Counted from the stretch's first letter, positions 16,201 through 64,000 are shown. The stretch: 64,000 bases of DNA from an uncultured Melioribacter sp. (GCA_964484755.1 CAZAGH010000003.1:15157-79156), one strand, 5' to 3'. Program-made: numbers and translations. The notes: a model not told the origin generated them from the sequence alone.

Positions 16201-17526
16201 CTTACCTACGATGTCGATAACGATGGACGGATTGACTTGGGCTTTGGATCAACGATTCCTGAAATCGGTGCCATGACAAGTTTCACGTTTGTTCGGCAGA
16301 CAGAACGTATGCAGTTCCCCGCACCAAGCGCCCTGCGTGGTATCCATGAACCAACCGACAGTACGCTTGGTAGCATTCGGCTGTCGTGGTTCCCTGTTGA
16401 TGGAGCTGCCTCGTATCAGGTAACTCGACGAGTTGGACGAGTTGATTCCTTGATTGCAGAGACTACGTCGACAAGCCACGTCTACACAATGCGGGGCATA
16501 GCCGATTCAGTCATCTCGTTTGTCGTGCGTGCTGTTCCAGGTGGTAATTCTGTCCTTGCAGGCAGAGAATCAAACCGGGTTGTCATCGACGCACGCCCTG
16601 TTATCCTCGGAGTAGGGCTCGATCGCACCACGATCACGAGGCGAGAACTTCGTGATGGGTTGACCTTGAGCTTTGCCATTGGCGCAGGTGGAGTGTTCCC
16701 ACGTGGACTCTCATTGCCGGCCCAGCAAATTCTATCTGTCCGAAGCAACGACGTGATCACGACAGCCCGTTATGGCCGGCCGCGTGGTGACATAGCACTC
16801 GATCTTGTCTTTCCCGGTGTTGAATACACAGAAGATTCTCTTCGCGTGACTGTAAAGATTCCGGTCAGCCGGGATCTGTATGTGGCCAGGACGTTTACTC
16901 TGCGAGTTATTGATACTCCAGAGCCTGAGCGTTCACGCAAGCTGATAACTCTATCAGGCGTTACCGTGCGGTCACCTCTTGAGCTCAGCCTTCGGTTTTC
17001 TCATCCAGTGGATGCCAGCGCACTCAAAGCATCAGCATATCAGCTTCGTCCAGCAGGAGTAGTGAGTAGCGTGGTACGTATCGACGATTCGACCGTCTTA
17101 CTGGCACTCGATGAAGGAGCGCCGTTGAAGGCGATCGGCATCACGTATGCCATCACGGCAAGAGATGTCACGTTTGACACAACGCATGCAATTGCCCAAG
17201 GGGCTGGCAGCACGCTCACCTTCAGCGTGTTTGGAAGAGGAGAGCAAGACGTCTATGCCTACCCTCAGCCACTAAAACTGCAGACACACCAAGAGCTCGT
17301 GTTTGCCGGACTACCGGCGATCTCGGATGTTGAAATCTTCGATGTCAACCTCAAACCAGTTGCGTTTCTGCGCAGTGTAGACGGTAACGGTGGTCTGCGA
17401 TGGAATCTTCGTACATCGTCGTCACGTGAAATTGAACCTGGCGTCTATTACTACATTGTCACGAGCCGAGATCCTGACGGAAGTTCCGATGTATGGCCGA
17501 TGAAGAAGTTGCTTATCCAGCGATGA
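13222..17526 (+). CDS. Secreted subtilisin-family (S8) peptidase with FG-GAP/VCBS-like repeats and a T9SS-like C-terminal domain
   Basis: Signal peptide; D/H/S triad motifs (IIDTGID, HGHGTLVAG, SGTSFSAPYVA); repeats of the type DIDGDGREEIL and GDFDGDGKMEIAF; a beta-rich tail (VYAYPQP..VEIFDVNLKPV..GVYYYIV). ATGA overlap with the recQ stop. Confidence 0.85.
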   Translation: MIVRLTMAVACIVLLGSAQSASAQDILVLTSTDQLPAELRSMQPTRVIPNGLLEKGRETQQVGKVSAALLRRLHRYVRISRSNMTATIDSIRSIPGVIAAWNVQRAQLHIRPSEETPISDDSLSSSQYALELVGARQAWQVASGTGITIGIIDTGIDWDHEDLRDALAISPKEDLNANGRFDAWPYDQERAGIWGDLNGIDDDDNGMVDDVIGADFVDQEFRNLGDDRWYDPVPFDEHGHGTLVAGVVAATKDNKKGIAGLAHGARLRAIRAFDATGSAEEDDIAAGLLYAASNGVQIVNMSFGDGVNSPLMQDAIEYARTQGCILVASAGNSGLVSTQYPASYTGVIVVAATTSKDLRAPFSSTGPVVSLSAPGQAIITTSVNSRYRTVSGTSFSAPYVAATAALLLERFPDLGAEEIRGTLMASSKDLGEIGWDPLYGAGRLRADAALAVLGTSRLAITHPFNEQEFFEDTQELVVLRGSNHIINFERCEVAVGQGVDPRQWTVAFTRSVSVIDDTIGGLSIDTLSLGLHTIRMRVYCTDGRHHDAHVRIRVTRQTDNRRAYEHVTAWMRDRKTDVVTLSTFVPTNVAITDGSAPFADIASTPKKYATLHSIVLPDTWGTTTSDRLIQITTTPMVGESFTTGHSLVKPPHQAIPTTGWDTVLTAPWAGYVLNDVRDLYRDGGKCVVMNDLSDGAFGRTVVTQYKDGRWILRDSLSDTYIPRAICDANGNGRYEVLCHVVGKTVLFEQQTSTSSLFGSVLFADTTNVLNAAGAADIDGDGREEILALADNACYVYTCKDDRFSLLGIAKNTSEPPSSNATNRVDEISIASGDFDGDGKMEIAFSDTDGDLVVHEWNGASFEEEIVFENPGAGGSGFVAAGDVTADGLPDILHGIPDSVDANPEGEYGRQVWTYNLYTADQSTGHFKVWTDRVAGVRLGIGYRNGVAIADIDSMPGAEIIISAFPRLFVFGRDTVQREIVPKAFFDDVATPRVLTYDVDNDGRIDLGFGSTIPEIGAMTSFTFVRQTERMQFPAPSALRGIHEPTDSTLGSIRLSWFPVDGAASYQVTRRVGRVDSLIAETTSTSHVYTMRGIADSVISFVVRAVPGGNSVLAGRESNRVVIDARPVILGVGLDRTTITRRELRDGLTLSFAIGAGGVFPRGLSLPAQQILSVRSNDVITTARYGRPRGDIALDLVFPGVEYTEDSLRVTVKIPVSRDLYVARTFTLRVIDTPEPERSRKLITLSGVTVRSPLELSLRFSHPVDASALKASAYQLRPAGVVSSVVRIDDSTVLLALDEGAPLKAIGITYAITARDVTFDTTHAIAQGAGSTLTFSVFGRGEQDVYAYPQPLKLQTHQELVFAGLPAISDVEIFDVNLKPVAFLRSVDGNGGLRWNLRTSSSREIEPGVYYYIVTSRDPDGSSDVWPMKKLLIQR

Positions 17527-50180: not shown

Positions 50181-50999
50181 CTACAATGCAACCGCAATTC
50201 CTGCGGTTAGGAGCGAAATGTTGTACCTGTTGATGAAGTACGATCTTGCAGGCCTTCCTGTCGAGCCCTGCCATGTTTGAGGGTCAAACACCGGCGTAAG
50301 CGGATACGAATACCCGACGTTGAGATCAATGCCTCGGATCAAACCCAAATCCCGGAAGAGCCTCACTCGTAGCGAACCATGAGCGTTGAATACGAAACTG
50401 TTGTATGCAGAAAGTGACGAGGTTGTATCAATTCGTGTCCGCGAACCATTTTCAAACATCAAGTTTTCTGGAAAGTCAAGCATCTCCGTTTGATGAAACT
50501 CTGTCGATGCGATGTAGTAGGCATCCGGACCAATACCGATCCAAAGCCAGTCTGTGAGCTCGTACTCTACCGTCAGGTGCACCGGCACCGTATGAAATGT
50601 CAGGTCAAGTTCATGCTTGAAGACTGCGTCAACATCTTTGCCTACACCCTGATCGTATACGGGCTGCGTAGAAAATGAAGTGTACGTTACCGGCAAGATC
50701 TGATAGCCTACTCTCGTACTGAGGCGCAGTCCATCATTTGACAAAGGGAAACTACCTCCCAGCTGAACGCCGTAGCCAATACCAGTTGAGTTTTCGAACC
50801 CTAAGCAGCAGTTCTCTATCGGTGGCAATGAATTAAAGTCTACATCGTGAAAAGCGTTCGTACCAAAAAGGTTGATCGACCATTCCGTGGAAGCATTCGC
50901 TGGCGATTCAGTCTGCACAGTGTCGTTCGACACTTGCGCGAATGCAATCATCGTACCAAGCAAGAAGACAGTAGTGAGAGCGAGGATTTGCTTCATCAT
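50181..50999 (-). CDS. Module A gene 3: predicted outer-membrane beta-barrel protein with a conserved FNSLPPIENCC motif
   Basis: Signal peptide MMKQILALTTVFLLGTMIAFAQ, an alternating-hydrophobic strand pattern to the C-terminus, homology to 57050..57973, and an ATGA overlap with the upstream stop. Confidence 0.7.
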   Translation of the reverse strand: MMKQILALTTVFLLGTMIAFAQVSNDTVQTESPANASTEWSINLFGTNAFHDVDFNSLPPIENCCLGFENSTGIGYGVQLGGSFPLSNDGLRLSTRVGYQILPVTYTSFSTQPVYDQGVGKDVDAVFKHELDLTFHTVPVHLTVEYELTDWLWIGIGPDAYYIASTEFHQTEMLDFPENLMFENGSRTRIDTTSSLSAYNSFVFNAHGSLRVRLFRDLGLIRGIDLNVGYSYPLTPVFDPQTWQGSTGRPARSYFINRYNISLLTAGIAVAL

Positions 51000-51904
51000 G
51001 GTAGCTTTAGAAGAGTCGTGCGAGCAGTGTTGTCTGCCGAAACAAATGTTACCGTGTAAGTCCCAGCTGGGATCACGGGCAGGTCCACGGTGACCAGTGG
51101 CCACTGAGCGTTAGCTTCGATACCAAGCTTATGCACAACAATGTTGCCGTGCATATCGGTGATCATAACGGTTCCGGTTACCGATTCTTCCGAGTACACG
51201 CGCAATCCTACACTTGACCCCGTAACAGGATTCGGCGCAACAAGTATTGATGGTTTCCCTGTGGACTTCACAAGGCGCGTATTGCCATATGTCGTGCAAA
51301 GGCCCTGCAGAGTCACAGAACCAGGCGTTGATCGCGTAAACTGGCGGGGAACCGCCGTCCAACGAAACGACTCGACGCGCACTGCACTCATGGTATCGTT
51401 GCCGAGTAGTGCACGAAACACGAGTGTTGTGAGTTTGCCTGACTGCCCCGAAGCTTTGCCCGTAACAGTTATGGTGTGATAGTCGCCGTTGTCTTCGATC
51501 TTATCGAAAACAAGTGGAGCAAGGACTGTGCGATTAAACGCGAGCTTTAGCTCCCACTCACGTTCGACACCGTCCTGAAAAAAGGCACACGGTGCACCAT
51601 ATCCAAGATCAAAGTTGAACGTGTCGCCGACCTGTTGAACCTGCTCCGGAACAACAATCGTTGTGTTCTCATAGCTCTGTTGATAGTAGTCACCTATGCT
51701 CTGCAATCCGCCAGCAAGCCGTGGTGTGGGCCCGACGTCTCCGAGCATCGGTTGGCCTATCGATACGCGCAATCCGAACTTGCCCGAAACGGGGCTGGCG
51801 ATTGCACCGCTTGTAACGCCGCCACCTGCGATGCCGTATTGTGCATGCACGCGGCCAACGAGCAGCATGACAAGGAGGAGAGATAAAATGATGTTTGTTC
51901 TCAT
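50996..51904 (-). CDS. Module A gene 2: secreted protein with a T9SS type-A C-terminal sorting domain
   Basis: The ATG at 51904 gives the signal peptide MRTNIILSLLLVMLLVGRVHAQ. Tail APNPVTGSS..VMITDMHGNIV..IPAGTYTVTF..LLKLP. Homologous to 57970..58887. Confidence 0.75.
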   Translation of the reverse strand: MRTNIILSLLLVMLLVGRVHAQYGIAGGGVTSGAIASPVSGKFGLRVSIGQPMLGDVGPTPRLAGGLQSIGDYYQQSYENTTIVVPEQVQQVGDTFNFDLGYGAPCAFFQDGVEREWELKLAFNRTVLAPLVFDKIEDNGDYHTITVTGKASGQSGKLTTLVFRALLGNDTMSAVRVESFRWTAVPRQFTRSTPGSVTLQGLCTTYGNTRLVKSTGKPSILVAPNPVTGSSVGLRVYSEESVTGTVMITDMHGNIVVHKLGIEANAQWPLVTVDLPVIPAGTYTVTFVSADNTARTTLLKLP

Positions 51905-51939
51905 GGTTGTTCCTTCATTATGACACAGCAATGCTGTCA

Positions 51940-54900
51940 TTACGTTGTTGCCATGAGAACCCACTTCTGGAGAGTTCCAGAGTAGATGAATGTGATGGAT
52001 TGGTTGTTGCCAATAGTCTTATTTGCTACACCGAGGATAAGACGATTGTCAGCCGCTGAGCGATTGTCTTCATTCTGGAAGGTAATGTTCTTACCAGACT
52101 GATTGATGATGATGATGACACGGCCATTCTCACCATTGTCAAAGCCGGTAATGTCGGATCCCTGACCAGCGTTGATCATGCGGAAGAACGCGTTATCGGA
52201 GATGTTGATGTTGTTGATTACCGTGCCCGCTCCACGGAGTAAGTCAATATCAATTGTTGTACCCTCAGTCAGTACGAACTTTCCGATGTTGCTTGATGGA
52301 TTTTCAGCCACCCACTTATCGGTAGCTGCGTCATAGACGAGAGCAAATCCGTCTTGCAATGTCAAAGGTGATGTGATCTGCTTGCCACCAATTGTCGAAG
52401 CATCAGCAGAAAACGTTGCCGGCTTCCATGTATTAGCAGTTGCATCCCATGTGAGCACTTGATTGTTGGTTGGAGCCGTTGCTGCTACTGCGCGGCCCTG
52501 AAGACCATCAACCGTTGGATTCGGATATGTACCATTGAGATCACCACCTGCTGTTCCACCTGGAGCAACACCGCTGATGGTTACGTTGTTGGCTGCCGTT
52601 ACGCGACCTTGCGCGTCAACTGTGAATGAACCTACTTGTGTTGCTGTGCCGTACTGGCCTGCCGTGACGGCAGTGTTTGAGAGCTTAGCACTTGTTACCG
52701 AACCGTCAGCAATATCTGCCGTGCCCACAGCTCCGTCAAGTATCGATGTGGATGTGACCGCCCCTGTAGCGAGAGTCGGATTCGGATACGTACCAGTGAG
52801 AGCGCCGCCCGCACTTCCGCCTGGCGTAACACCGGCAATCGTGATGTTCGCAGCAGCTGTTATGCGACCCTTCGAGTCAACGGTAAACGAACCAACTTCA
52901 GTGGCAGTACCATACGAACCGGCGGCAACACCCGTTGTGCTGAGCTTCGCACTGGTGATCGCGCCGTCTGCAACCTTTGCAGTCGTTACGGCACCGTCAG
53001 CAAGATCTGCGGTTGCTACCGAACCGTCAATGATGTTTGCTGATCCAACAGAACCATTGGCGAGCGTTGGATTAGGGAACGATCCTGTGAGCGCACCACC
53101 AGCTGCGCCAGTTGGTGAGGCTCCTGTGATGGTGACATTCGTTGCACTTGTAATGCGACCCTTAGCATCGACCGTGAACTGACCAACCTGTGTTGCTGAT
53201 CCATAGGTGCCCGCTGTGACCAACGTGTTCGCAAGCTTAGCGTCAGTTACAGCGCCATCCGCGAGGTCGGCTGTGCCAACCGCTCCATCTGCGATAGAGG
53301 AAGAGCTTACAGCTCCCGTAGACAGTGTTGGGTTGGGGTACGTTCCTGCAAGTGCGCCGCCCGCTGCACCTGTAGGTGCTGCACCTGTGATGGTAACATT
53401 TGTTGCGCCAGTTATGCGACCCGACGCATCAACAGTGAACTGCCCAACCTGCGTTGCTGATCCGAACGTTCCAGCATTAACACCTGTGGCTGCCATCTTT
53501 GCAGAGGTCACCGCGCCGTCACCGAGGTCAGATGTTGCAATCGATCCATCTGTGATGTTGCCTGATGCTACCGAGTTGCTGGCAAGCGATGGGTTTGGAT
53601 AGCTGCCTGTTAGTGCACCACCGGCAGATCCACCAGGAACAACACCAGAAATCGTTACGTTCTGCGCCGCTGTTATGCGTCCTGCAGCGTCCACAGTAAA
53701 CTGTCCTACCTGGCTGGACGTACCATACGTGCCGAACAAAACGCCAGTGCTTGTCATCTTAGACGACGTCAGCGTTTCGTCTGCAATATCCACTGCTTGG
53801 ATCGAACCATCGGCAATGCGTGATGAAGTAACAGAGCCAACTGCAAGAACTGGATTAGGGTAATTTCCAGTAAGTCCGCCGCCTGCGCGACCTGTTGGTT
53901 CAGCTGCCGCTATTGTTACGTTCCCTGCACTTGTGATACGTCCAGCAGCATCAACGGTGAATTGGCCGACCTGAGTGGCTGAACCGTATATGCCAGCTGT
54001 AACACCAGTGTTGGAAAGCTTTGCTGAGTTTACGATTCCATCCCCAAGATCAGCAGTTGCGATCGAGCCGTCTGTGATGTTGCCAGAGCTTACCGAATTG
54101 GCTGCGAGCGTTGGGTTAGGATATGTTCCTGTGAGTGCTCCGCCAGCGGAACCGCCAGGTGTGGTACCCGTGATTGTGACGTTTCCGGCAAAGGTGAGGC
54201 GACCCTGTGAATTGACGGTGAACTGACCAACCTGTGTTGCACTGCCGTACGTTGCAGCAGTTACACCAGTTGATGAGAGCTTCGCATCATTAACAGCACC
54301 ATCGGCAATGTTTGTTGTTGAGATACCGCCCGCTGCGATGTCAGAAGATGTGATTGTACCGTCGATGATGTTTGCGGAAGCGACAGCGTTATTCGCCAGG
54401 GTAGGGTTCGGATATGTGCCAGAGAGAACGCCACCTGCCGAGCCGCCCGGTGTAACACCTGAAATGGTTACGTTTGATGCCGTTGTAAGACGTCCCTGCG
54501 CATCAACCGTAAATGCACCAACTTGCGTCGAAGATCCATAAGAACCTGCAGTGACCGTCGTGTTGGCCAGCTTGTTAGCCGTAACAGCCCCATCTGCCAG
54601 ATCGGCTGATGTTACTGAACCATCTGCGATCGCAGAAGAAGTAACTGCACCAGCTGCTAGTGTAGGATTGGGATATGTACCGGAGAGAACACCGCCCGCT
54701 GGGCCGCTTGGAGAGATTCCGGAGATGGCAACGTTTGTTGCTGATGTGATGTGACCACGAGCATCTATCGTTATCTGCGGCACAAGCAGGCTCGAACCAT
54801 ACGTGGCTGCTGTTACACCCGATAGGTAGTGCTTTGGAGCTGTGATTGCACCATCAGCAATGTCGTTAGTAGAAATCGTGAGATCTTGAATGTTGGTCGA

Positions 54901-56793
54901 CGTTACAACTCCCGTTCCAAGACTTGGATTAGGATATGTACCTGAGAGAACACCTCCCGCTGCACCACCTGGAGTTGTGCCGCTGATCGTGATGTTCTGC
55001 GCTGTTGTTACGCGGCCTTGAGCATCAACTGTGAACTGACCAACTTGTGTCGCGTTTCCGTACGTGCCTGATGTAACGCCTGTGGTTGAGAGCTTCGACG
55101 ATGGAATTGCACCGTCGGCAAGGTCTGAGCCTTGGATCGAACCATCAACGATGTTGAGCGATGTTACAGAGTTATTCGCAAGTGTTGGGTTCGGATATGA
55201 TCCCGAGAGAGCGCCGCCAGCCGGACCCGATGGTGCTGTTGGTGCGATTGGAATGGAAAATGCTGTGACGACGCGACCTGATGAGTCAACAGCCACAACT
55301 GCTGAATGCGTTGACGAGCCATATTGGCCAGGATTTACTCCCGTTGGTACAAGCTTCTGCGAGGTAACAGCGCGGTCAACGATTTTATCTGTCGATACCG
55401 CGTTACTTGCAAGATCAACATTCGCAACAGTGCCGTCCAGAATTTTGCTTGATGTTACAGCTGCATTCTTGATGTTGTCTGTACCAACGACATCGAGTGC
55501 CAGCTGTGGGTTTGGATATGTTCCGGTAAGGTCGCCGCTGGCAGGACCAGTAGGGGGCGAGCCAGCCATTGGGACATTCTGGATCGTAACGATTCGACCC
55601 GACTTATCGACATACATTTGAGGGATCAGGGTAGACGAGCCATAAAGCCCGGCATCCAGTGGCATCTGTGAAAGCTCATCACTGCCAATAGAGCCATCCT
55701 TAATGTTGGCAGCCGTGATCGTATTTGGGGCGATCTTTTGGCTTGTAACAGCAAAGTCTGCGAGCTTCTGTTCGGTTACAGCCTTGTCGGCAATCTTCGT
55801 TGTCGTGATGGCAGCACCAGAAATCTTTTCCGATGTTACCGCACCCTCTGCAAGTTTTGGTGTTGTTACGTTGAAGTCAACAAGCTTCGATGTCGTAACG
55901 CTATTGTCGGCAAGCTCAGTTGTCGTTACCGCTGCACGCGCAATCTTCTCAGTCGTGATGACGCCGTTCTTGATCGTTGGTGCCGGATAGAAACCTGTGA
56001 GTTCTCCACCAGCCGTTCCTCCAGGCGGTACGCCAATGATTGGAACTTGTTCGGCAAACGTCACACGGCCCTGCTCGTCTACACGCAGCACTGTACTGGT
56101 GTTCGATGAGCCAAAAGGACCAAGTGGGCCTTGATGAATCTCCTGCAGTGCGGCTGCACCAACAGTGTTATCGTTGATCTTCAGAGTAAGGGCGTTGAGT
56201 GCACCAGAAACGGTAACGTCTGATCCTGTGCTTGATGCTGCCCCCTCTACGCGAGCAGCATTAATCGACTTCGTACCTGTGGCATTGATAGAGTTGATCA
56301 GAACATCACCCATGTTGTTGGCCGGGTTGTTGATCGACTGACGTATAGAATCAGCGACCTGCGGCGTTACAGCGCTTGCAATCTCAGCAGACTTAGCATT
56401 CAATGCGTTGAGAGCGTAGGGAACGGCTGTGAGGAACACCCGCGGTGTCAGCTCCGGTTGGCTGTTGATCGAGGTGCCAAGCCATAAGAATTGATCGAAT
56501 GAAACATCCAGTGGAGTCTTGTCGCCAAGGATAACGTTGAATACGCCACCATTGGTCGTTACTGTGTGACGCTCTTTCCAGATCCCGGTGCCGCCAAGCG
56601 CAACATTATATAGCGTAAGGTCAACTGTCCAGACGCTATCGCAGACTGGAATGCCGGTAGTGTCGATCAACACCCCTTGGTATGTGATCTTCTTTGGAAT
56701 GCCTGCCTGCGCAGATGCGCCAGTAGACGCTGCTGCGATAACAACCGCGAGCATGAGCGCCATGAACAGGCCACGTACTATCGTCTGTGCCAT
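51940..56793 (-). CDS. Module A gene 1: giant (1617 aa) secreted repeat protein, fibre-like
   Basis: The ATG at 56793 gives the signal peptide [28 protein letters not shown]. It is followed by an N-terminal ~100-aa domain, 13 repeat modules and a 189-aa C-terminal domain. Confidence 0.85.
52510..56142 (-). repeat. Coding repeat array of giant protein 1: 13 modules of 87+10k residues, with nested decapeptide repeats
   Basis: Hand-counted spacings between (Y/F)P(N/A)P motifs are 157, 107, 87, 87, 87, 97, 87, 87, 87, 87, 97, 87. Confidence 0.85.
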
Positions 56794-56940
56794 ATGAAAA
56801 ACCCAACAGTGTAGATATACTTTTGTTTCGATGAGACGAGGCGCAGAGCGTGTATGTCGGGCCGTTAACCCCTTGTCGAAGGCACTCTTGCGCACAAGAC
56901 GCAAAATTATCACGAGCCAGTCTAGTAGCGCTCGCACGGA

Positions 56941-57049: not shown

Positions 57050-57973
57050 TTAGAAAACCAAGCCGAACCCAAACGTCAACATTGATATTGAATATGAATC
57101 AATAAAGAACGTTGCAGGTGGATTACCGTACATACCTCTCCATGTTTGTGCAGAGAACAACGGTTGCAGTGGCAGCGAATATCGCCCGAAGATATCGACA
57201 CCAACCGCCCCCTGTTGCTTTTCAATTAATCGGATGCGCGCAGAACCTGTGGCATTGAAAACGACAGCATTCTGGCCGCGAACGTATCCATTCTTGTCCA
57301 AACGCACGCGTGTGCCCGTCTCGAAGACAAGGTTGGATGGTTCTTCTAGCGTTTCTGTTTGGTGAAAGGAGCCCGTAGCATAGAAGTAGCCGTCGAGCCC
57401 GAATCCAAGGTAGAAACTGCTAAGAACGGGATACTCGAGTCGTGCACCAAACGTTACGGTTGTCCAGGTTACGTCTAGTGTATGACGAAAGAGGGCGTCG
57501 CCAGAGACAACACCACCAGTGAACGCCTTTTCCGTAGAGTACGAATCAAACGACACGGGCATGTTAACATAGCCGATGTGTGGTGTGATCGTAAGGCCAT
57601 CAGCGGTAAGGGGCGTTGTGTATCCAAGCTCAAAGCCGAATCCCAGCCCCTTGCTGTCACTGAACCCTGTGCAGCAGTTTTCGATAGGAGGAAGCGAGTT
57701 GAATGATGCATTGTGCGTAGCAAGGTTGCCTACGAACGATACCGTAATCTCGTCATGTGAATGAGCGACGCCATGGTCATGCACGTGTTGATGCTCGTGC
57801 ACATGTCCGTATGCATGCGAATGTTCATGTGGGTGAGTATCGCTTGCTGAATGCTGGTGTGCGTGACCGTGGTTGTGATCGTGCACATGCATGGTGTCGG
57901 ACTGCTGCGCGGAAGCCGATGTCATGCAAAGCAAATACGCCGCCATAATTGTAACTGAGAAGCTTGATATCAT
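57050..57973 (-). CDS. Module B gene 3: predicted outer-membrane beta-barrel protein with a His-rich N-terminal tract and the FNSLPPIENCC motif
   Basis: Signal peptide, 19 His within 45 residues after it, a beta-strand pattern ending in a C-terminal Phe, and an ATGA overlap with the upstream stop. Confidence 0.7.
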   Translation of the reverse strand: MISSFSVTIMAAYLLCMTSASAQQSDTMHVHDHNHGHAHQHSASDTHPHEHSHAYGHVHEHQHVHDHGVAHSHDEITVSFVGNLATHNASFNSLPPIENCCTGFSDSKGLGFGFELGYTTPLTADGLTITPHIGYVNMPVSFDSYSTEKAFTGGVVSGDALFRHTLDVTWTTVTFGARLEYPVLSSFYLGFGLDGYFYATGSFHQTETLEEPSNLVFETGTRVRLDKNGYVRGQNAVVFNATGSARIRLIEKQQGAVGVDIFGRYSLPLQPLFSAQTWRGMYGNPPATFFIDSYSISMLTFGFGLVF

Positions 57974-58887
57974 GGCAGCTTCACCATAGTAGTTCGTACC
58001 ACATCGTTTTCCGTAAAGAGAGCCACCGTGTACGAACCAGCAGGGATCACCTGAAGCTCAACGGTTGTCATCGGCCATGTTGATCCTGCCTCCACTCGGT
58101 CTGCTGTGTAGACGATGTTCCCGTGAATGTCTGTCACGACAAGCGTTCCAACTTGCTGTTTATCTGAGTATGTGCGCATCGTGAACGATGAGCCCGTTAC
58201 AGGATTTGGTGCAATGAGGATCGCCATCTTGCTTGGGTCTTTCAGCAAACGCGTAGAGCCATAGGTGTTGCATAGACCACGAAGAACGACGGTCCCTTGC
58301 ATGGACTGAACATACTGACGTTGCGCATCTACCCAGCGGAATGATTCAACTCGGACATCTGTGACGGAGTCGTTTCCAAGGCGCCCCATCATCGGGATGC
58401 GGGTTAGCACTCCATTGTTTGATGTTGCACTGCCTGTAAGTGTGATCGTGTAACGATCCCCATCATCAACAAGAGAATCATAGCGAAGGGGCTCGAGCAC
58501 TGTTCGGTTGAAACTGAGCTTGAGTTCCCAGTCGCGGTCCACCACCGTGCTCTGAAAAAGTGCGCACGATGCACTGTAGCCAACTTCAAGAGCAAACGTA
58601 TCGCCAATTTGCTTGACAACACTGTCGACTCTGAGAAGCGTTGATTCGTAGTACTTCTGAACGGCGTTACCATGGCTGATGATGCCGGAGCGGACGATCG
58701 GGTCGAGACCCGTTTCGCCAACAATTGGCAGACCAACAGCCCCCTGCATGTGGTAGTCACCAAGTTGGATCGCAGTTGTCGCGCCACTGGTCACAACCCC
58801 GCCCACGACTGTCTGACCCTGCATCGGGGATCCCACGATGCCGAGAAGACAACCAATCACGAGTATGTGTTTCATTGTTGTTTTCAT
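57970..58887 (-). CDS. Module B gene 2: secreted protein with a T9SS type-A C-terminal sorting domain
   Basis: Signal peptide MKTTMKHILVIGCLLGIVG. Tail APNPVTGSS..VVTDIHGNIV..IPAGSYTVAL..MVKLP. Confidence 0.75.
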   Translation of the reverse strand: MKTTMKHILVIGCLLGIVGSPMQGQTVVGGVVTSGATTAIQLGDYHMQGAVGLPIVGETGLDPIVRSGIISHGNAVQKYYESTLLRVDSVVKQIGDTFALEVGYSASCALFQSTVVDRDWELKLSFNRTVLEPLRYDSLVDDGDRYTITLTGSATSNNGVLTRIPMMGRLGNDSVTDVRVESFRWVDAQRQYVQSMQGTVVLRGLCNTYGSTRLLKDPSKMAILIAPNPVTGSSFTMRTYSDKQQVGTLVVTDIHGNIVYTADRVEAGSTWPMTTVELQVIPAGSYTVALFTENDVVRTTMVKLP

Positions 58888-58906: not shown

Positions 58907-61900
58907 TTAGGTAGTGGCCATGAGGACCCACTTGCCCAGAGTACCAGAATAGATGAATGTTATCGACTGGTTGTTGCCGATCGTCTTGTTTGCTACGCCT
59001 AGAATGAGCTGGTTATTAGCTCCAGAACGACCATCCTCGTTTTGGAAGGTGATGTTCTTACTTGACTGGTTGATGATAATGATCACGCGACCGTTCGCAC
59101 CATTTGCAAAGCCAGTTATGTCGGAACCTTGGCTTGCATTCGTCATCCGGAAGAATGCGTGATCAGAAATATTAATGTTGTTGATTACAGTTCCGGCTCC
59201 GCGTAACAAGTCGATGTTAATCGCAGTACCCTCACCCAAAATCAACTGCTTAATGTTACCTGTTGGATTTTGTGGAACCCATTTATTCTGAGCCGCATCG
59301 TAGGCAAGAGCATCACCGTCATTAGGATTGAGGATAGGATCGACTGCAATACCCCCGATTGACGATGCTGTAGCTGTTACCGAAGCTGGCTTCCACGTCT
59401 GAGCAGTATTGTCCCATGTGAGAACCTGATTGTTCGTTGGTGCCGTTGCTGCAACCGCACGACCCTGCAATCCATCGACTGTCGGGTTTGGATAGGTGCC
59501 GTTTAGATCGCCACCGGCAGTGCCACCCGGAGTTACTCCTGTGATCGTAACGTTCTGTGCAGCAGTGATGCGGCCGTTAGCATCAACAGTGAATTGGCCT
59601 ACCTGTGTTGCCGAGCCGTATGTGGCTGCGGTAACGCCAGTCGTTGAAAGCTTTGCAGCTGTTACCGCACCGTCAGCAATAAGTGGGGCAGTGATAGCGC
59701 CTGTGGCAATGTCGCCTGTTGCGACCGCACCATCAACGATGTTGCTTGAGTTGATGGTGTTCGCAGCAATTGATGGGTTCGGATATGTTCCAGTGAGATC
59801 ACCACCAGCCGCTCCACCTGGAGTTACACCAGTGATCGTGATGTTGGCAGCCTGTGTCACGCGACCCTTTGAATCGACTGTGAACTGGCCAACCTGCGTT
59901 GCCGAGCCGTATTGTCCGAGGATTACACCTGAGTTCTCAAGCTTGTCGGCAGTTACAGATCCTGGAGCAAGCTTTGCAGCTGTTACAGAACCGTCAGCGA
60001 TCTTGGCGGTTGTGACAGCACCGTCGGTCAACTTGGCCGTTGATACTGCACCATCTGCAAGCTTAGCACCGGTGACGTTACCATCTTGGATTTTCGTCGT
60101 GGTAACAGCATTGTCGCCAAGTTTAGCCCCAGATACTGCGCCGTCAGCGAGCTTTGCAGTTGTGACGTTGCCATCTGCAATCTTCGCTGTCGTGACCGCA
60201 TTGTCAGCAAGGTCTACCGTTGCAACTGTTCCGTCGAGGATCATTGGCGATGTAACAGCACTGTTCGCGATGGTAGGGTTAGGATACGTTCCCGTCAGAG
60301 ACCCTCCAGCTGCGCCAGATGGTGCAACGCCAGAGATAGTAACGTTTTGAGCTGATGTGATTCGACCCTTTGAATCCACTGTGAACTGACCAACCTGTGT
60401 TGCAGAACCATACTGACCTGTGATCACACCGGAATCATCAAGTTTGTCCGGTGTAACTGAACCAGGTGCGAGCTTGGCGCTAGTGACTGAGCCATCGCCA
60501 AGCTTGGCTGTAGTAACAGCGCCATCGGCGAGCTTTGGTGTTGTGACGTTCCCATCGGCGATCTTCGGCGTCGTAACGGCGTTGTCAGCGAGCTTAGGGG
60601 TCGTAACGTTTCCATCAGCAATTTTTGGTGTTGTTACAGCATTATCAGCTAGATCGATCGTTGCCACTGTTCCGTCGAGGATCATTGGCGACGTTACAGC
60701 ACCCGTTGCGATAGTTGGGTTAGGGTAGGTGCCTGTGAGCGATCCACCAGCTGCGCCTGCAGGAGCAACACCTGCGATCGTGATGTTTGCGGCTTGGACA
60801 ACGCGACCCTTCGAATCGACAGTGAACTGTCCAACTTGTGTTGCTGAACCGTACTGTCCAACAATAACAGCGGTATTCTCCAGCTTGTCGCCAGTTACTG
60901 AACCAGGAGCGAGCTTCGCAGCCGTTACAGATGCGTCAGCAAGTTTTGCTGTTGTTACGTTACCGTCTTGAATCTTCGCCGTCGTTACGGCATTGTCTGC
61001 AAGCTTCGCATTCGTCACATTGCCATCGGCAATCTTCGGTGTTGTTACAGCATTGTCTGCAAGATCGACTGCCGCTACAGTGCCATCGAGAATCATACCT
61101 GATGTTACCGCACTCGGAGCAATGGATGGGTTAGGGTACGTGCCCGAGAGTGACCCACCAGCTGCACCACCTGGTGAAACGCCTGCAATAGTAATGTTCG
61201 CTGCTTGCGTTACACGCCCCTTAGAATCAACAGTGAACTGACCGACTTGCGTAGCAGAACCATACTGACCAACTACGACGGCTGTGTTCTCGAGCTTGTC
61301 TCCAGAGACTGCTCCTGGAGCGAGCTTATCTGCAGTAACAGATCCATCAGCCAGTTTTGCTGTTGTGACATTCCCATCTTGAATCTTTGCTGTTGTTACT
61401 GCATTGTCACCGAGTTTCGCATTCGTGACAGCGCCGTCTGCGAGCTTTGGAGTTGTGACATTAGCATCAGCAATCTTCGCTGTTGTAACGGCATTATCTG
61501 CCAGATCTACCGTAGCAACTGTACCATCAAGAATCATTGGTGATGTAACAGCGCCATTAGCGATTGATGGATTTGGATACGTTCCTGAGAGGGAACCACC
61601 GGCTGGTCCGGCTGGAGTAACTCCTGCGATTGTTACGTTTTGAGCCGACGTGATACGCCCTTTAGAATCGACTGTGAACTGACCAACCTGCGTGGCAGTA
61701 CCGTATGTACCGGCAGGAACGCCTGAATTCTCAAGCTTATCAGCTGTGACCGATCCCGGAGCGAGCTTCGCGGCAGTGACCGAGCCGTCGGCGATCTTGT
61801 TTGTTGTAACTGCGCCGTCAGCAAGCTTCGCTGCCGTCACGCTGCCGTCTGTGATCTTATTCGTCGTGACGGCACCGTCTGCAAGCTTCGCGCCAGTTAC

Positions 61901-64000
61901 GTTGCCATCCTGGATCTTTGCCGTCGTAACAGCACCATCAGCAAGCTTAGCAGCTGTCACATTTCCGTCGAGAATTTTTTGCGTTGTTACAGCATTGTCT
62001 GCAAGGTCTGCTGCAGAAACTGTACCGTCCTGAATCATTGATGAGTTGACTGCATTCGGAGCAATTGATGGGTTGGGATATGTTCCTGATAGGGAGCCGC
62101 CGGCTGGGCCACCTGGAGCGACACCACTGATTGTGATGTTTGCAGCCTGCGTAACGCGGCCCTTTGAGTCAACAGTAAACTGACCCACTTGTGTTGCCGA
62201 ACCGTATTGGCCGAGCACAACGCCTGAGTTTTCCAGCTTGTCTGCAGTGACCGAACCAGGGGCTAATTTGGCTGCCGTAACTGATCCGTCTGCCAACTTG
62301 TTCGTTGTAACTGCACCGTCAGCAAGCTTAGCCGTAGAAACAGCACCATCGGCGAGCTTTGCACCTGTGACGTTTCCATCTGCAATTTTAGTTGTTGTTA
62401 CTGCGTTGTCTGCGAGGTCTGCAGCAGATACGGTTCCGTCTTCGATCATCATTGAGCTAACTGCACTCGGGGCAATTGTTGGGTTCGGATATGATCCTGT
62501 GAGTGAACCACCAGCCGGGCCACCGGGTGTTACACCAGTGATCGTCACATTTTGTGCAGCCGTGATGCGACCCTTCGAGTCCACTGTGAATTGTCCAACT
62601 TGAGTTGCGTTACCATACGTTCCTGCACCCACGGCTGTATTGGCGAGCTTTTCTGCCGTGACAGCACCATCGGAAAGCTTTGAAGAGCCCACAGCGCCAT
62701 CAGCAAGTTTGGCAGCGGTTACTGCGCCATCAGCAAGCTTCTGTGTGCCGATTGCGTTATCTGCAAGCTTCGGGCCAGTAACTGAACCGTCCTGGAGTTT
62801 CATTGTTGAAACTGCGTTGTCAGCCAACTTCTGATTTGTCACGTTGCCATCGGCGATCTTCGTTGTTGTAACCGCATTATCAACGATGAGTTCGTTAGTG
62901 ATCGTGTTTGGTGCAATATCAACCGTAGCGATTGTGCCGTTAAGGATCTTGGCAGATGTTATGGCATCTGGAGCTATCAGGGGATTAGGATATGTCCCTG
63001 TTAGGTCGCCACCAGCAGCACCGACAGGGGGCATGCCCGCGATCGTGACGTTTTGAGCTGAAACGATGCGTCCCTTTGCGTCGACAGTGAACTGTCCAAC
63101 TTGCGTTGGAGAACCATACGTACCAACTCCAACACCGCTGTTCTCAAGTTTAGCAGCTGTGATTGCTCCGTCAGCGATCTTCTGAGCTGTTACAGCAAAG
63201 TCGGCAATCTTTGGTGTGGTTACAGCACCGTTGGCAAGATCAATGTCCTGGATTGTTCCATCAAGGATCTTCGTTGATGTTACCTTACCTGTGCCAATGG
63301 TTGGATTCGGGAACGAGCCTTCAAGGTCGCCACCTGCGATAAGTCCGCCAGGTGCAATCGTGACGTCAACCTCACGAATGTTCGTTATGCGTCCAGCCTG
63401 ATCGACGGTAAACTGTGGGACCTTTGATGACGCGCCATATGTAGACGGGAATATCGCCGGCATGGTCGACATCTTCGTGCTCGTAATCGCTCCGTCGGCA
63501 ACTTTCGGTGTCGTTACTGCGTCATTTGCCATATCCTGAGTCTTCACTTCACCATCCTTGATTTTAGGACTGGTGACCGCATCATCAGCAAGGTCGACTG
63601 TGTTGACGTCACCGTCTTTGATTGCGGCACTCGTAACCGCATCGTTCGCGATCTTGGGAGCGGTAATGGCTCCGTCCGCGATGTTTACTGTCGTTGCCGC
63701 ACCTGGAGCGAGCTTAGCAGCTGTTATAGAGCCATTAGGAATCTTGTCTGCCGTAACTGCGCCATCGCGAATAGTCGGATTTGGGTAGGTGCCTGTAAGG
63801 TCACCACCTGCGGCTCCGCCTGGGCTAACCCCTGAGATCGGAACTTGTCCTGCGCGAACTACACGGCCCTGCGGGTCAATCGTGATCACGGCCGACTCTG
63901 TGGCAGATCCGAACGGACCTATAACGCCGGGGTGAATCTCTTCGAGTTCATCTGCACCAACAGTGTTTGGCCTCAATGTGAGGTTCATACTATCCAAGCT
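58907..64000 (-). CDS. Module B gene 1: giant repeat protein, fibre-like; the N-terminus lies outside the window
   Basis: The frame stays open to base 64000. The first residues in the window align with residues ~250 onward of giant 1. There are 11 repeat modules and the same 189-aa C-terminal domain. Confidence 0.85.
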   Translation of the reverse strand, partial: SLDSMNLTLRPNTVGADELEEIHPGVIGPFGSATESAVITIDPQGRVVRAGQVPISGVSPGGAAGGDLTGTYPNPTIRDGAVTADKIPNGSITAAKLAPGAATTVNIADGAITAPKIANDAVTSAAIKDGDVNTVDLADDAVTSPKIKDGEVKTQDMANDAVTTPKVADGAITSTKMSTMPAIFPSTYGASSKVPQFTVDQAGRITNIREVDVTIAPGGLIAGGDLEGSFPNPTIGTGKVTSTKILDGTIQDIDLANGAVTTPKIADFAVTAQKIADGAITAAKLENSGVGVGTYGSPTQVGQFTVDAKGRIVSAQNVTIAGMPPVGAAGGDLTGTYPNPLIAPDAITSAKILNGTIATVDIAPNTITNELIVDNAVTTTKIADGNVTNQKLADNAVSTMKLQDGSVTGPKLADNAIGTQKLADGAVTAAKLADGAVGSSKLSDGAVTAEKLANTAVGAGTYGNATQVGQFTVDSKGRITAAQNVTITGVTPGGPAGGSLTGSYPNPTIAPSAVSSMMIEDGTVSAADLADNAVTTTKIADGNVTGAKLADGAVSTAKLADGAVTTNKLADGSVTAAKLAPGSVTADKLENSGVVLGQYGSATQVGQFTVDSKGRVTQAANITISGVAPGGPAGGSLSGTYPNPSIAPNAVNSSMIQDGTVSAADLADNAVTTQKILDGNVTAAKLADGAVTTAKIQDGNVTGAKLADGAVTTNKITDGSVTAAKLADGAVTTNKIADGSVTAAKLAPGSVTADKLENSGVPAGTYGTATQVGQFTVDSKGRITSAQNVTIAGVTPAGPAGGSLSGTYPNPSIANGAVTSPMILDGTVATVDLADNAVTTAKIADANVTTPKLADGAVTNAKLGDNAVTTAKIQDGNVTTAKLADGSVTADKLAPGAVSGDKLENTAVVVGQYGSATQVGQFTVDSKGRVTQAANITIAGVSPGGAAGGSLSGTYPNPSIAPSAVTSGMILDGTVAAVDLADNAVTTPKIADGNVTNAKLADNAVTTAKIQDGNVTTAKLADASVTAAKLAPGSVTGDKLENTAVIVGQYGSATQVGQFTVDSKGRVVQAANITIAGVAPAGAAGGSLTGTYPNPTIATGAVTSPMILDGTVATIDLADNAVTTPKIADGNVTTPKLADNAVTTPKIADGNVTTPKLADGAVTTAKLGDGSVTSAKLAPGSVTPDKLDDSGVITGQYGSATQVGQFTVDSKGRITSAQNVTISGVAPSGAAGGSLTGTYPNPTIANSAVTSPMILDGTVATVDLADNAVTTAKIADGNVTTAKLADGAVSGAKLGDNAVTTTKIQDGNVTGAKLADGAVSTAKLTDGAVTTAKIADGSVTAAKLAPGSVTADKLENSGVILGQYGSATQVGQFTVDSKGRVTQAANITITGVTPGGAAGGDLTGTYPNPSIAANTINSSNIVDGAVATGDIATGAITAPLIADGAVTAAKLSTTGVTAATYGSATQVGQFTVDANGRITAAQNVTITGVTPGGTAGGDLNGTYPNPTVDGLQGRAVAATAPTNNQVLTWDNTAQTWKPASVTATASSIGGIAVDPILNPNDGDALAYDAAQNKWVPQNPTGNIKQLILGEGTAINIDLLRGAGTVINNINISDHAFFRMTNASQGSDITGFANGANGRVIIIINQSSKNITFQNEDGRSGANNQLILGVANKTIGNNQSITFIYSGTLGKWVLMATT
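59477..64000 (-). repeat. Coding repeat array of giant protein 2: modules of 87+10k residues with expanded decapeptide runs
   Basis: Hand-counted spacings between (Y/F)PNP motifs are 158, 107, 167, 137, 167, 147, 137, 147, 167, 97. Confidence 0.85.

What the first reader, a model, noticed from the sequence alone, without database searches (positions are those of the whole stretch)
52510..56142. Length-quantised hierarchical repeats: 87-residue modules that grow in exact 10-residue steps
Seen in sequence (hand count of the supplied translations): I measured residue spacings between successive (Y/F)P(N/A)P motifs. For giant 1 they are 157, 107, 87, 87, 87, 97, 87, 87, 87, 87, 97, 87. For giant 2 they are 158, 107, 167, 137, 167, 147, 137, 147, 167, 97. 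Every value except the 158 equals 87+10k. Each module has three parts. It opens with YPNPxhxxxx. It continues with n copies of a decapeptide (approximately V-T-x-x-K-[LI]-a-D-G-x, with n from 3 to 11). It ends with a constant ~47-residue block (..[42 protein letters not shown]). The decapeptide phase is maintained across each run. Inference: the decapeptide is one structural rung of a shaft (beta-helix or beta-spiral like), and the 47-residue block is a node between shaft segments, so shaft length is set digitally. I recall GDLxGxYPNPxV-like motifs and short KLADG-like repeats in phage tail-fibre and minor-tail proteins, but I cannot verify family membership here.
Basis: partly seen in the sequence, partly recalled or inferred. 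Interest (0 to 1): 0.7.

Follow-up and report, generated by a model that had tools for sequence, protein, structure and literature searches.

The report
Length-quantised bacterial surface fibre proteins
Two giant secreted proteins of an uncultured Ignavibacteria/Kapabacteria-type bacterium are phage-tail-fibre-like surface fibres whose shafts are built from a fixed 57-residue knot plus any whole number of 10-residue spacers, a tidy but essentially ordinary example of a large, catalogued and structurally unsolved repeat family.

Summary
All 123 decapeptides keep phase without any indel, and the node is always 47 residues.

The rule module = 57 + 10n holds across the family, with n from 0 to 13. 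Other subfamilies use other node sizes.

The two giants lie on the minus strand of an ordinary chromosome, not in a prophage. Each has:
- a signal peptide;
- a ~100-residue N-terminal domain related to the anchor domain of Bdellovibrio mosaic adhesive trimer (MAT) fibres;
- the modular shaft;
- a ~113-residue C-terminal tip with no known relative.

Each giant heads a three-gene cassette, duplicated in tandem, with a type IX secretion (T9SS) sorted protein and a putative outer-membrane barrel.

The decapeptide run is the one found in trimeric T7-like cyanophage tail fibres. Pfam lists it as 'Decapeptide repeat region', and the GDLxGxYPNP part as DUF5907.

AlphaFold2 monomer models give a confident beta-hairpin node and one helical turn per decapeptide. 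They do not give beta-helix rungs. No solved structure matches.

Verdict: a new member of a known kind. The digital length rule appears undescribed. The fold is unsolved.

The parts
51940..56793 (-). Giant 1 gene (1617 aa from Met49 of the ORF that extends to 56937; stop codon at 51940-51942)
   Evidence: ORF list and translation. The database copy P0001 is 100% identical and starts at this Met.
56704..56793 (-). Giant 1 signal peptide ([30 protein letters not shown])
   Evidence: Read from the translation: a hydrophobic core followed by ASA-QA. All family N-termini aligned carry an equivalent leader. No signal-peptide predictor was run.
56410..56706 (-). Giant 1 N-terminal domain of about 100 residues ([11 protein letters not shown]...VPYAL), related to the Bdellovibrio MAT N-terminal domain
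   Evidence: NCBIfam NF053851 Bdello_MAT_N: E=5e-8, 32.8 bits on the isolated N-terminus. 16 of 16 diverse family members hit it, best E=7e-11, and the two scores seen (26.3 and 32.8 bits) are below the 60-bit cut-off. No PDB relative by profile search.
52528..55989 (-). Giant 1 shaft: 12 modules (residues 317-1470) of 157,107,87,87,87,97,87,87,87,87,97,87 residues. Each is a 10-residue YPNP head, then n decapeptides, then a 47-residue node.
51943..52527 (-). Giant 1 C-terminal region (residues 1471-1665). It holds two (Q)VLTWD..W.P-type motifs and then a beta-rich tip of about 113 residues (52281 down to 51943).
   Evidence: The region is shared by about 40 homologues. The tip has no hit in PHROGs or in the PDB by profile search, and no Pfam hit above threshold. 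The AlphaFold2 model is low-confidence and mostly strands.
58907..64000 (-). Giant 2 gene, 3' part (1697 of 1863 aa lie in the window; the N-terminal 166 aa lie beyond 64000)
   Evidence: The full-length copy P0020 comes from the same 98-kb contig.
59495..63787 (-). Giant 2 shaft: 10 modules of 158,107,167,137,167,147,137,147,167,97 residues, with 4-11 decapeptides per run and a 20-residue super-period
   Evidence: DNA tandem periods of 30, 60 and 90 bases at 69-80% identity. Pfam DUF5907 at 51.4 bits and Decapeptide at 42.3 bits.
57970..58887 (-). B2: 305-aa secreted protein with a T9SS type A C-terminal sorting domain, immediately downstream of giant 2
   Evidence: TIGR04183 at 21.3 bits, just under the 23-bit cut-off. 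48% identical to B1. Conserved next to giants in L001-L005.
57050..57973 (-). C2: 307-aa protein with a signal peptide, a His-rich stretch and a putative outer-membrane beta-barrel
   Evidence: 42% identical to C1. Only weak barrel-type hits: autotransporter barrel E=0.05 for C2 and OMP_b-brl E=0.002 for its paralogue C1. Conserved synteny.
50996..51904 (-). B1: protein of about 302 aa (the ORF extends to 51964) with a T9SS type A sorting domain, downstream of giant 1
   Evidence: TIGR04183 at 28.8 bits, above the 23-bit cut-off..
50181..50999 (-). C1: protein of about 272 aa (the ORF extends to 51104), paralogue of C2

Best explanation
What it is. Both giants are secreted fibres of the phage-tail-fibre type, most likely homotrimeric, displayed on the surface of an Ignavibacteria/Kapabacteria-like bacterium. 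They are distant relatives of the Bdellovibrio mosaic adhesive trimer (MAT) fibres.

Architecture. Each has a conserved N-terminal domain at the cell-proximal end and a small variable-type tip at the far end. Between them lies a shaft made of two nested repeats.
- The basic unit has 57 residues: a 47-residue node whose core is a beta-hairpin ([13 protein letters not shown]-xxGR-hTxAxNhTI) followed by a Gly/Pro-rich loop, and then a 10-residue GDLxGxYPNP 'head'.
- Between head and next node sit n copies of the decapeptide [VI]-T-T-x-K-[LI]-A-D-G-x.

How the length rule arises. Each decapeptide is one fixed structural increment, with two core residues (positions 1 and 6) and one helical turn. 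Partial units cannot be fitted in. Unequal recombination or slippage between the 30-base repeats can therefore change the shaft only in whole units, or in whole modules. The reach of the tip then evolves in discrete steps.

Why every integer n occurs. In a three-fold symmetric fibre the three chain exits are equivalent after any number of units.

Shown: the quantisation, its generality, the homologies, the cassette, and the periodic monomer model.
Inferred: the trimeric state, surface display, the adhesive role, and the geometry of the decapeptide.
For: Quantisation and phase. Family-wide rule with n = 0-13 and no preference for multiples of 2 or 3.

Digital change between close strains. In a MAG whose giant 1 is 90% identical, the giant 2 orthologue has 8 modules [158,107,187,147,147,157,167,97] against 10 in the window. 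Giant 1 is unchanged in 16 of the 17 orthologue clusters at 83-100% identity (one shows a single 86).

The repeats are old. DNA copies are only 69-80% alike, so the exact phase reflects selection and not recent duplication.

Trimeric context:
- The same decapeptide forms 29 exact copies in the tail fibre of T7-like cyanophage S-TIP37.
- It occurs in P-SCSP1u gp28, described as 'hexametric trimer of fiber proteins' (PMC10575957).
- It occurs in orf16 (9EG4_H) of the Legionella phage LME-1 capsid entry, probably the head decoration protein, which has a trimeric base (PMC12407071).
- Family members P0066, P0075, P0076, P0079, P0080 and P0117 end in Peptidase_S74, the intramolecular chaperone of trimeric fibres.

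N-terminal domain: 16 of 16 members hit Bdello_MAT_N. MAT proteins are surface-displayed trimers with an invariant N-terminal domain and swapped tips (PMC10769870).

Structure: the AlphaFold2 model of node-run-node has mean pLDDT 74, hairpins about 90, and one 3-residue helical turn exactly every 10 residues. Foldseek against viral models returns tail fibres.

Context: a cellular chromosome with a signal peptide and T9SS partners, and a conserved three-gene cassette.
Against: - No multimer prediction or experiment was possible, so the trimer is inferred from relatives only.
In the second model the runs reach only pLDDT 58-87.
- The MAT_N scores seen (26.3 and 32.8 bits) are below NCBI's curated cut-off of 60 bits.
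- The giants have no recognisable T9SS sorting domain or other export signal beyond Sec, so the route to the surface is unknown.
- The decapeptide run shows weak similarity to pentapeptide-repeat proteins (5DRA E=9e-5, HetL E=2e-7), which are monomeric solenoids.
- Quantisation is not absolute. There is one 158, one 86 in an orthologue, and there are alternative node types.
Confidence: 0.6

Rival explanations
1. Monomeric beads on a string. Each decapeptide run folds alone as a pentapeptide-repeat-like (Rfr) or other beta-solenoid, with 10 residues equal to half a 20-residue coil. The nodes are linkers between solenoids.
For: - Weak but repeated sequence similarity of the runs to pentapeptide-repeat proteins: designed repeat 5DRA E=8.6e-5, HetL E=2e-7, PipB2.
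- Pfam Pentapeptide families are recorded in homologues P0039, P0042 and P0069.
- Giant 2 has a 20-residue super-period (lag 20 above lag 10; DNA period 60).
Against: - No sequence signal at lag 5 (0.07, below background).
- Position 4, which would be the buried i-2 residue, is the least conserved and is often P, D or S.
- Odd and even n are equally used, and runs of 0-3 units (1.5 coils or fewer) are the commonest.
- The AlphaFold2 monomer model does not build a solenoid or any strand in the run.
- The same run sits in fibres known to be trimers (PMC10575957).
Confidence: 0.12
2. There is no structural meaning. The runs are flexible low-complexity linkers, and the 10-residue steps are only the footprint of slippage between 30-base DNA repeats.
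For: - Tandem DNA periods of 30, 60 and 90 bases exist in giant 2.
- Module and run numbers differ between close strains.
- Model confidence in the runs is only moderate.
Against: - DNA copies are only 69-80% identical, and giant 1 has no detectable DNA tandem repeat. Even so, all 123 units keep exact phase with V/I at position 1 and L/I at position 6.
- The rule holds in proteins only 30-50% identical and in phage fibres.
- Two conserved hydrophobic positions per unit and a strictly periodic predicted turn are not features of disordered linkers.
Confidence: 0.07
3. The genes are the tail-fibre genes of an integrated prophage or a tailocin, not cellular adhesins.
For: - Very strong PHROG tail-fibre matches (phrog_892 E=5e-187, phrog_28766 E=2e-186).
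- More than 304 node-bearing stretches in IMG/VR viral contigs.
- 171 phage records carry the decapeptide run.
Against: - The window carries housekeeping genes on the sampled side: icd, dsbA, DEAD helicase and dapD next to the cassette, and RecQ, RecG, murC and a tRNA synthetase elsewhere. No phage structural or replication gene was seen among the ORFs I scanned.
- The giants have Sec signal peptides and a MAT-like N-terminal domain, not a phage adaptor domain.
- Their partners are T9SS-sorted and outer-membrane proteins.
- The cassette is syntenic in several MAGs.
- The sequence upstream of giant 2 lies outside the window and was not seen.
Confidence: 0.04

Closest known systems
Bdellovibrio bacteriovorus mosaic adhesive trimer (MAT) fibres (Caulton et al. 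2024, PMC10769870; NCBIfam NF053851 Bdello_MAT_N)
   Same: - Long secreted fibre proteins of a Gram-negative bacterium with phage-fibre ancestry.
- A conserved N-terminal domain: 16 of 16 family members hit the MAT_N model.
- A long shaft and exchangeable C-terminal tips. In this family the tips include Peptidase_S74 in some members, which parallels the S74 and non-S74 split of MATs.
   Different: - The MAT_N scores seen (26.3 and 32.8 bits, against a 60-bit cut-off) are sub-threshold.
- The hosts are Ignavibacteria, Kapabacteria and other FCB-group bacteria, not Bdellovibrio.
- The MAT paper describes beta-helix subdomains near the tips and does not describe a node-plus-decapeptide shaft.
- The tip here has no known relative.
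- The giants are linked to a T9SS-sorted protein and a putative barrel, which is not reported for MATs.
Tail fibres of T7-like cyanopodoviruses (S-TIP37 gp39, P-SCSP1u gp28, S-CBP3/4, P-GSP1) and actinophage minor tail proteins; Pfam PF25296 'Decapeptide repeat region'; PHROGs 892 and 28766
   Same: - The same decapeptide (AVTTAKIADG type) in exact tandem phase. S-TIP37 has 29 uninterrupted copies.
- Strong profile matches.
- These fibres are homotrimers (PMC10575957).
   Different: - The phage fibres examined have one long run and no 47-residue nodes. Deposited phage genomes give only one weak node hit.
- They start with a T7-type adaptor-binding domain, not a signal peptide plus MAT_N-like domain.
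- The decapeptide part was not resolved in the P-SCSP1u structure (PMC10575957); whether it is modelled in 9EG4 or 7Z4B I could not tell (PMC12407071, PMC9509320).
Pfam PF19264 DUF5907 (repeat of unknown function)
   Same: - Giant 2 scores 51.4 bits against a 27-bit cut-off.
- Most homologues carry this annotation.
- The match covers the GGDLxGxYPNPxI head.
   Different: - Only profile positions 15-38 of 80 align. The beta-hairpin node is not covered by the model.
- Giant 1 does not reach the threshold: no hit at E<=1 for the whole protein and 14.7 bits for two modules.
- No function or structure is attached to the family, and no paper in the searched library mentions it.
Alpha/beta coiled coils and beta-layers of trimeric fibres (Hartmann et al. 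2016, eLife, PMC4786415)
   Same: - Trimeric fibres built from short non-heptad repeats (hexads, nonads) in which a short helical piece alternates with a 3-residue beta-layer that turns each chain by 120 degrees.
- Beta-layers are common in phage fibres.
- A 'decad' (heptad plus 3) is taken up by a short 3-10 helical segment.
- The model here shows one 3-residue helical turn per 10 residues and two core positions per unit.
   Different: This is a resemblance only, and I did not test it. The decapeptide does not match the [aliphatic]-A-T-K-[polar]-[DE] consensus. The hydrophobic spacing is 5+5, not 6+3. No trimer model was available.
Pentapeptide-repeat proteins (Rfr fold)
   Same: Hydrophobic residue every fifth position, with weak HMM similarity.
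   Different: No lag-5 identity. The would-be buried position is variable. The unit of length change is 10, not 5 or 20. No solenoid is predicted.

Membership tests
Pfam PF19264 DUF5907 repeat | Whole-protein score at or above the gathering cut-off (27 bits) | tested here: met
   Giant 2 scores 51.4 bits with 4 stretches. Giant 1 does not reach it (no hit at E<=1; 14.7 bits for two modules). The model aligns only to the GDLxGxYPNP head.
Pfam PF25296 Decapeptide repeat region | Whole-protein score at or above the gathering cut-off (45 bits) | tested here: inconclusive
   Giant 2 scores 42.3 bits, E=7e-11, just under the cut-off in my scan. The precomputed annotation of the full-length copy P0020 lists PF25296.2. 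Giant 1, with short runs, has no hit.
Bdellovibrio MAT (mosaic adhesive trimer) fibres | N-terminal domain matching NF053851 Bdello_MAT_N at or above 60 bits | tested here: not met
   26.3-32.8 bits for giant 1. 16 of 16 family members hit at E<=0.01, best E=7e-11. This indicates homology of the domain, but not membership of the curated subfamily.
Bdellovibrio MAT (mosaic adhesive trimer) fibres | Homotrimeric fibre displayed on the cell surface | not testable with these tools
   Only monomer structure prediction was available. The trimer is inferred from relatives.
Bdellovibrio MAT (mosaic adhesive trimer) fibres | Exchangeable C-terminal tips on a common chassis, including S74 chaperone tips | tested here: met
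   Homologues share the N-terminal domain and modules but end in Peptidase_S74 (P0066, P0075, P0076, P0079, P0080, P0117) or in other domains. The tip of the window's giants is shared by only about 40 of 120 homologues.
Phage tail fibre (structural virion protein) | Encoded within a phage or prophage structural module | tested here: not met
   The neighbours are icd, dsbA, a DEAD helicase, dapD, and T9SS-sorted and outer-membrane-like proteins. No phage genes were found among the window ORFs I scanned. The region upstream of giant 2 is outside the window.
Phage tail fibre (structural virion protein) | Sequence homology of the shaft to annotated tail fibres | tested here: met
   phrog_892 E=5e-187 and phrog_28766 E=2e-186 for giant 2; phrog_892 E=7.5e-78 for giant 1. 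tblastn finds 171 phage records.
Pentapeptide-repeat (Rfr) proteins | Tandem 5-residue repeats A(D/N)LXX with a conserved small residue at i-2 | tested here: not met
   No lag-5 autocorrelation. Position 4 is variable (A46, P14, S13, D10 of 123). HetL scores 30.6 bits against a cut-off of 260.
T9SS cargo | C-terminal type A or type B sorting domain on the giant itself | tested here: not met
   No TIGR04183 or type B sorting-domain hit on either giant. The adjacent B proteins do carry the type A domain: B1 at 28.8 bits against a 23-bit cut-off.

The most novel reading that the evidence does not exclude
The decapeptide run is a trimeric fibre fold that has not yet been solved. One possibility is a 'decad' relative of alpha/beta coiled coils, with one helical turn and one cross-over per 10 residues. 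In this reading the 47-residue hairpin nodes act as clamps that reset register, so the shaft is a natural spacer whose length can be programmed in steps. In Ignavibacteria/Kapabacteria the fibre would belong to a dedicated three-gene surface system, in which a T9SS-anchored partner and an outer-membrane barrel hold or export it.
Probability: 0.3. Interest if true: 0.6.

Novelty: new member of a known kind. Interest (0 to 1): 0.4.

Why it matters
The family is large: 13,106 clusters at 50% identity match the node profile. It spans bacteria and viruses. I found no solved structure for either the node or the decapeptide run, and no paper in the searched library describes them.

The strict rule module = 57 + 10n makes concrete predictions:
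- fibre length should scale linearly with n;
- only whole units should be tolerated.

It also points to short, well-behaved constructs (node, n units, node) for solving the fold.

If the shaft is a rigid trimer, it is a ready-made scaffold with adjustable length. It would also give a way to read receptor-reach differences between strains directly from sequence, as with giant 2 and its orthologue.

In biological terms it extends MAT-like, phage-derived surface fibres to non-predatory FCB-group bacteria. It also links them to type IX secretion partners.

Tried and rejected
- PDB sequence searches. The whole giant, a run, a node, and profiles of the N-terminal domain, the tip and the node gave no informative solved relative. 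The three fibre or capsid entries that contain the decapeptide did not help. The region is unresolved in P-SCSP1u (8I4M). The matched part of SU10 (7Z4B) comes from an AlphaFold-derived model. For LME-1 (9EG4) the paper does not say whether it is modelled.\n- Foldseek. The pLDDT-74 model found nothing in the PDB (best E=1.6). The poor first model matched trimeric tailspike pieces only at TM below 0.2, which I do not count as evidence.\n- Literature. Searches for 'DUF5907', 'decapeptide repeat' with tail fibre, and 10-residue repeats in phage found nothing relevant. The RBPseg tail-fibre atlas does not mention this repeat.\n- Profile search with the N-terminal domain. It returned mostly short fragments and no named Bdellovibrio protein, so I could not test whether MAT shafts contain the same modules.\n- Pentapeptide-repeat solenoid, disordered linker and prophage readings. 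I considered all three and rate them unlikely (see rival explanations).\n- ORFs on the plus strand over the repeats (52535-53182 and others). I take them to be by-products of the repetitive sequence on the opposite strand and did not pursue them.

Full report
**Observation**

The finding concerns two very long ORFs on the minus strand. Giant 1 is 51940-56937, with a probable start at Met49 (56793). Giant 2 is 58907 to beyond 64000 and is cut by the window end.

- giant 1: 157,107,87,87,87,97,87,87,87,87,97,87;
- giant 2: 158,107,167,137,167,147,137,147,167,97.

I cut every module into a 10-residue YPNP head, n x 10 residues and a 47-residue node. This gives 123 decapeptides in perfect phase. 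Position 1 is V/I in 122 of 123, position 6 is L/I in 119 of 123, position 8 is D/N and position 9 is G/N. No run contains an indel.

A motif-free autocorrelation gives the same periods. Giant 1 peaks at lags 87 and 174. Giant 2 peaks at 137, 147 and 167 and at 10, 20 and 30. The highest value in shuffles is 0.13, and there is nothing at lag 5. The one odd value, 158, is a single extra residue in the divergent first node of giant 2.

It is far beyond chance, at about 2e-19 for 21 of 22 spacings in one mod-10 class.

**Generality**

A database search found 231 relatives, of which 120 were retrieved.
- In the closer ones the spacing is 57 + 10n, with every n from 0 to 13 represented. Up to 17 of 17 modules in one protein obey the rule.
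- Other clades are quantised on a different constant: 38-88 (8 mod 10) or 45-165 (5 mod 10). Some use other node types (84, 116, 125, 184).
- A profile of the 57-residue node plus head hits 13,106 clusters at 50% identity among 1.84 billion representatives.
- In that wider set the commonest spacing is 57, that is n = 0. The basic repeat is therefore the 57-residue unit, and decapeptide insertion is an elaboration seen in a subset.

Orthologues show the digital change directly. In an Ignavibacteria MAG whose giant 1 is 90% identical, the giant 2 orthologue has 8 modules (158,107,187,147,147,157,167,97) and not 10. Giant 1 keeps its pattern in 16 of the 17 orthologue clusters (one shows a single 86).

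At the DNA level the repeats are only 69-80% alike and are detectable only in giant 2. The exact phase is therefore maintained by selection and is not a sign of recent duplication.

**What the proteins are**

The window is ordinary chromosome. It carries RecQ, RecG, MurC, a class II tRNA synthetase, isocitrate dehydrogenase, DsbA and DapD. The closest genomes are Ignavibacteria, Kapaibacterium and Bacteroidota MAGs.

Giant 1 has four parts.
- It starts with a signal peptide.
- Next comes a domain of about 100 residues (IPxxIxYQGxL...VPYAL). In 16 of 16 diverse family members this domain hits NCBIfam Bdello_MAT_N, the N-terminal domain of the Bdellovibrio mosaic adhesive trimer fibres. The scores seen are below the curated cut-off. 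MATs are surface-displayed trimers with an invariant N-terminal domain and exchangeable tips (PMC10769870).
- The shaft matches PHROG tail-fibre families at E down to 1e-187. It also matches Pfam DUF5907 and, marginally, 'Decapeptide repeat region'.
- The last ~113 residues form a beta-rich tip with no relative in PHROGs or the PDB, and no Pfam hit above threshold.

The shaft's parts have different distributions.
- The DUF5907 model covers only the GDLxGxYPNP head, not the hairpin node.
- The same decapeptide forms 29 exact copies in the tail fibre of T7-like cyanophage S-TIP37 and shorter runs in actinophage minor tail proteins.
- Deposited phage genomes almost never contain the node. Many uncultivated viral contigs do, mostly as two nodes 57 residues apart.

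Some family members end in Peptidase_S74, the intramolecular chaperone of trimeric fibres.

**Cassette**

Each giant is followed by two genes:
- a ~305-322-aa ORF encoding a protein with a T9SS type A sorting domain (B1 at 28.8 bits against a 23-bit cut-off);
- a ~307-aa protein with a signal peptide and weak outer-membrane-barrel similarity.

The two B proteins are 48% identical and the two C proteins 42% identical. The whole three-gene cassette is therefore an old tandem duplication. It is conserved next to giants in five other loci, including a Kapaibacterium whose giant is only 42% identical. The giants themselves carry no recognisable T9SS sorting domain.

**Structure**

Only monomer prediction was available.
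- The C-terminal 426 residues of giant 1 gave a poor model with pLDDT 51.
- A node-run-node piece of giant 2, with a 31-sequence alignment, gave mean pLDDT 74. Each node core is a beta-hairpin at pLDDT about 90. The nine-unit run shows one 3-residue helical turn exactly every ten residues, at pLDDT 58-87, and no strands.
- Foldseek finds nothing similar in the PDB. Against viral predicted models it finds tail fibres.
- Sequence and profile searches of the PDB find no solved relative of the node, the N-terminal domain or the tip.
- The three PDB entries that contain decapeptides did not help. The region is unresolved in P-SCSP1u (PMC10575957). The matched part of SU10 is an AlphaFold-derived model (PMC9509320). 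For LME-1 the paper does not say (PMC12407071).

**Interpretation**

The best reading is a trimeric, phage-derived, MAT-like surface fibre whose shaft length is set in 10-residue quanta. The trimer is inferred from four lines of evidence:
- T7-type fibres, which are trimers;
- the S74-tipped relatives;
- the MAT-like N-terminal domain.

Every integer n is used, with no preference for multiples of 2 or 3. This fits a three-fold symmetric fibre better than a monomeric solenoid.

A pentapeptide-type solenoid is suggested by weak HMM similarity. Three observations argue against it: the missing lag-5 signal, the variability of position 4, and the model.

The pattern of one helical turn and two core residues per 10 residues recalls the 'decad' and beta-layer logic of alpha/beta coiled coils (PMC4786415). 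That is an untested resemblance.

The function is inferred from relatives and was not shown: adhesion through the C-terminal tip, with reach tuned by shaft length.

**Novelty**

The repeat types are catalogued in Pfam and PHROGs, and the fibre class is known from MATs and phage fibres. The window's proteins are therefore new members of a known kind.

Three things appear undescribed in the library I could search:
- the strict 57 + 10n rule and its breadth;
- the hairpin node as a separate unit;
- the conserved partnership with a T9SS-sorted protein and a putative barrel.

The fold of both repeat elements remains unsolved. I rate interest as moderate.

Noticed in passing
window 57050-57973 (-), N-terminal part of protein C2: After its signal peptide, C2 carries a long histidine-rich stretch (HVHDHNHGHAHQHSASDTHPHEHSHAYGHVHEHQHVHDHGVAHSHDE). 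This suggests metal binding. Its paralogue C1 (50181-50999) lacks the stretch.
   Followed up: no
window 59495-63787 (-), giant 2 shaft: A 20-residue super-period overlies the decapeptide. Autocorrelation at lag 20 (0.337) exceeds lag 10 (0.281), K-I-x-D-G-N units alternate with K-L-A-D-G-A units, and the DNA tandem period is 60. Runs still contain odd numbers of units (9, 11).
   Followed up: partly
window 50181-51964 and 57050-58887 (-): The giant-B-C cassette is duplicated in tandem: fibre, T9SS type A sorted protein, and putative outer-membrane barrel. The B pair is 48% identical and the C pair 42%. The cassette is conserved in Ignavibacteria and Kapaibacterium MAGs (L001-L005). The role of B and C in export or anchoring of the fibre is unknown.
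   Followed up: partly
window 30-3833 (+): Another large secreted protein (1267 aa) with a FlgD-Ig-like domain and a T9SS C-terminal sorting domain. It is unrelated to the giants, as far as I examined it.
   Followed up: no
window 13222-17526 (+): A 1434-aa subtilase (Peptidase_S8) fused to FG-GAP repeats.
   Followed up: no
L039 (IMGVR_UViG_3300031711_000005) and other IMG/VR loci L011-L090: Viral contigs carry the node mostly as two copies exactly 57 residues apart. L039 has five successive 57-residue spacings, that is n = 0 with no decapeptides. Deposited phage genomes carry long decapeptide runs without nodes. The two repeat elements therefore seem to circulate separately in viruses and are combined mainly in bacterial fibres.
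   Followed up: partly
P0140, P0183, P0202 (hits of the N-terminal domain profile): The MAT_N-like N-terminal domain also occurs on fragments that sources name 'collagen-like protein' or 'trimeric autotransporter adhesin'. This suggests the same anchor domain is combined with other kinds of trimeric shaft.
   Followed up: no
P0060, P0057 (homologues): In these two homologues the decapeptides of one run are replaced by a Trp/Arg/Glu-rich variant (for example LGWRAVRSENLDWEAVRSENIGWRAVRNEHLDFEAVRSEN) that keeps the 10-residue phase. A poly-Gly stretch precedes the tip.
   Followed up: no
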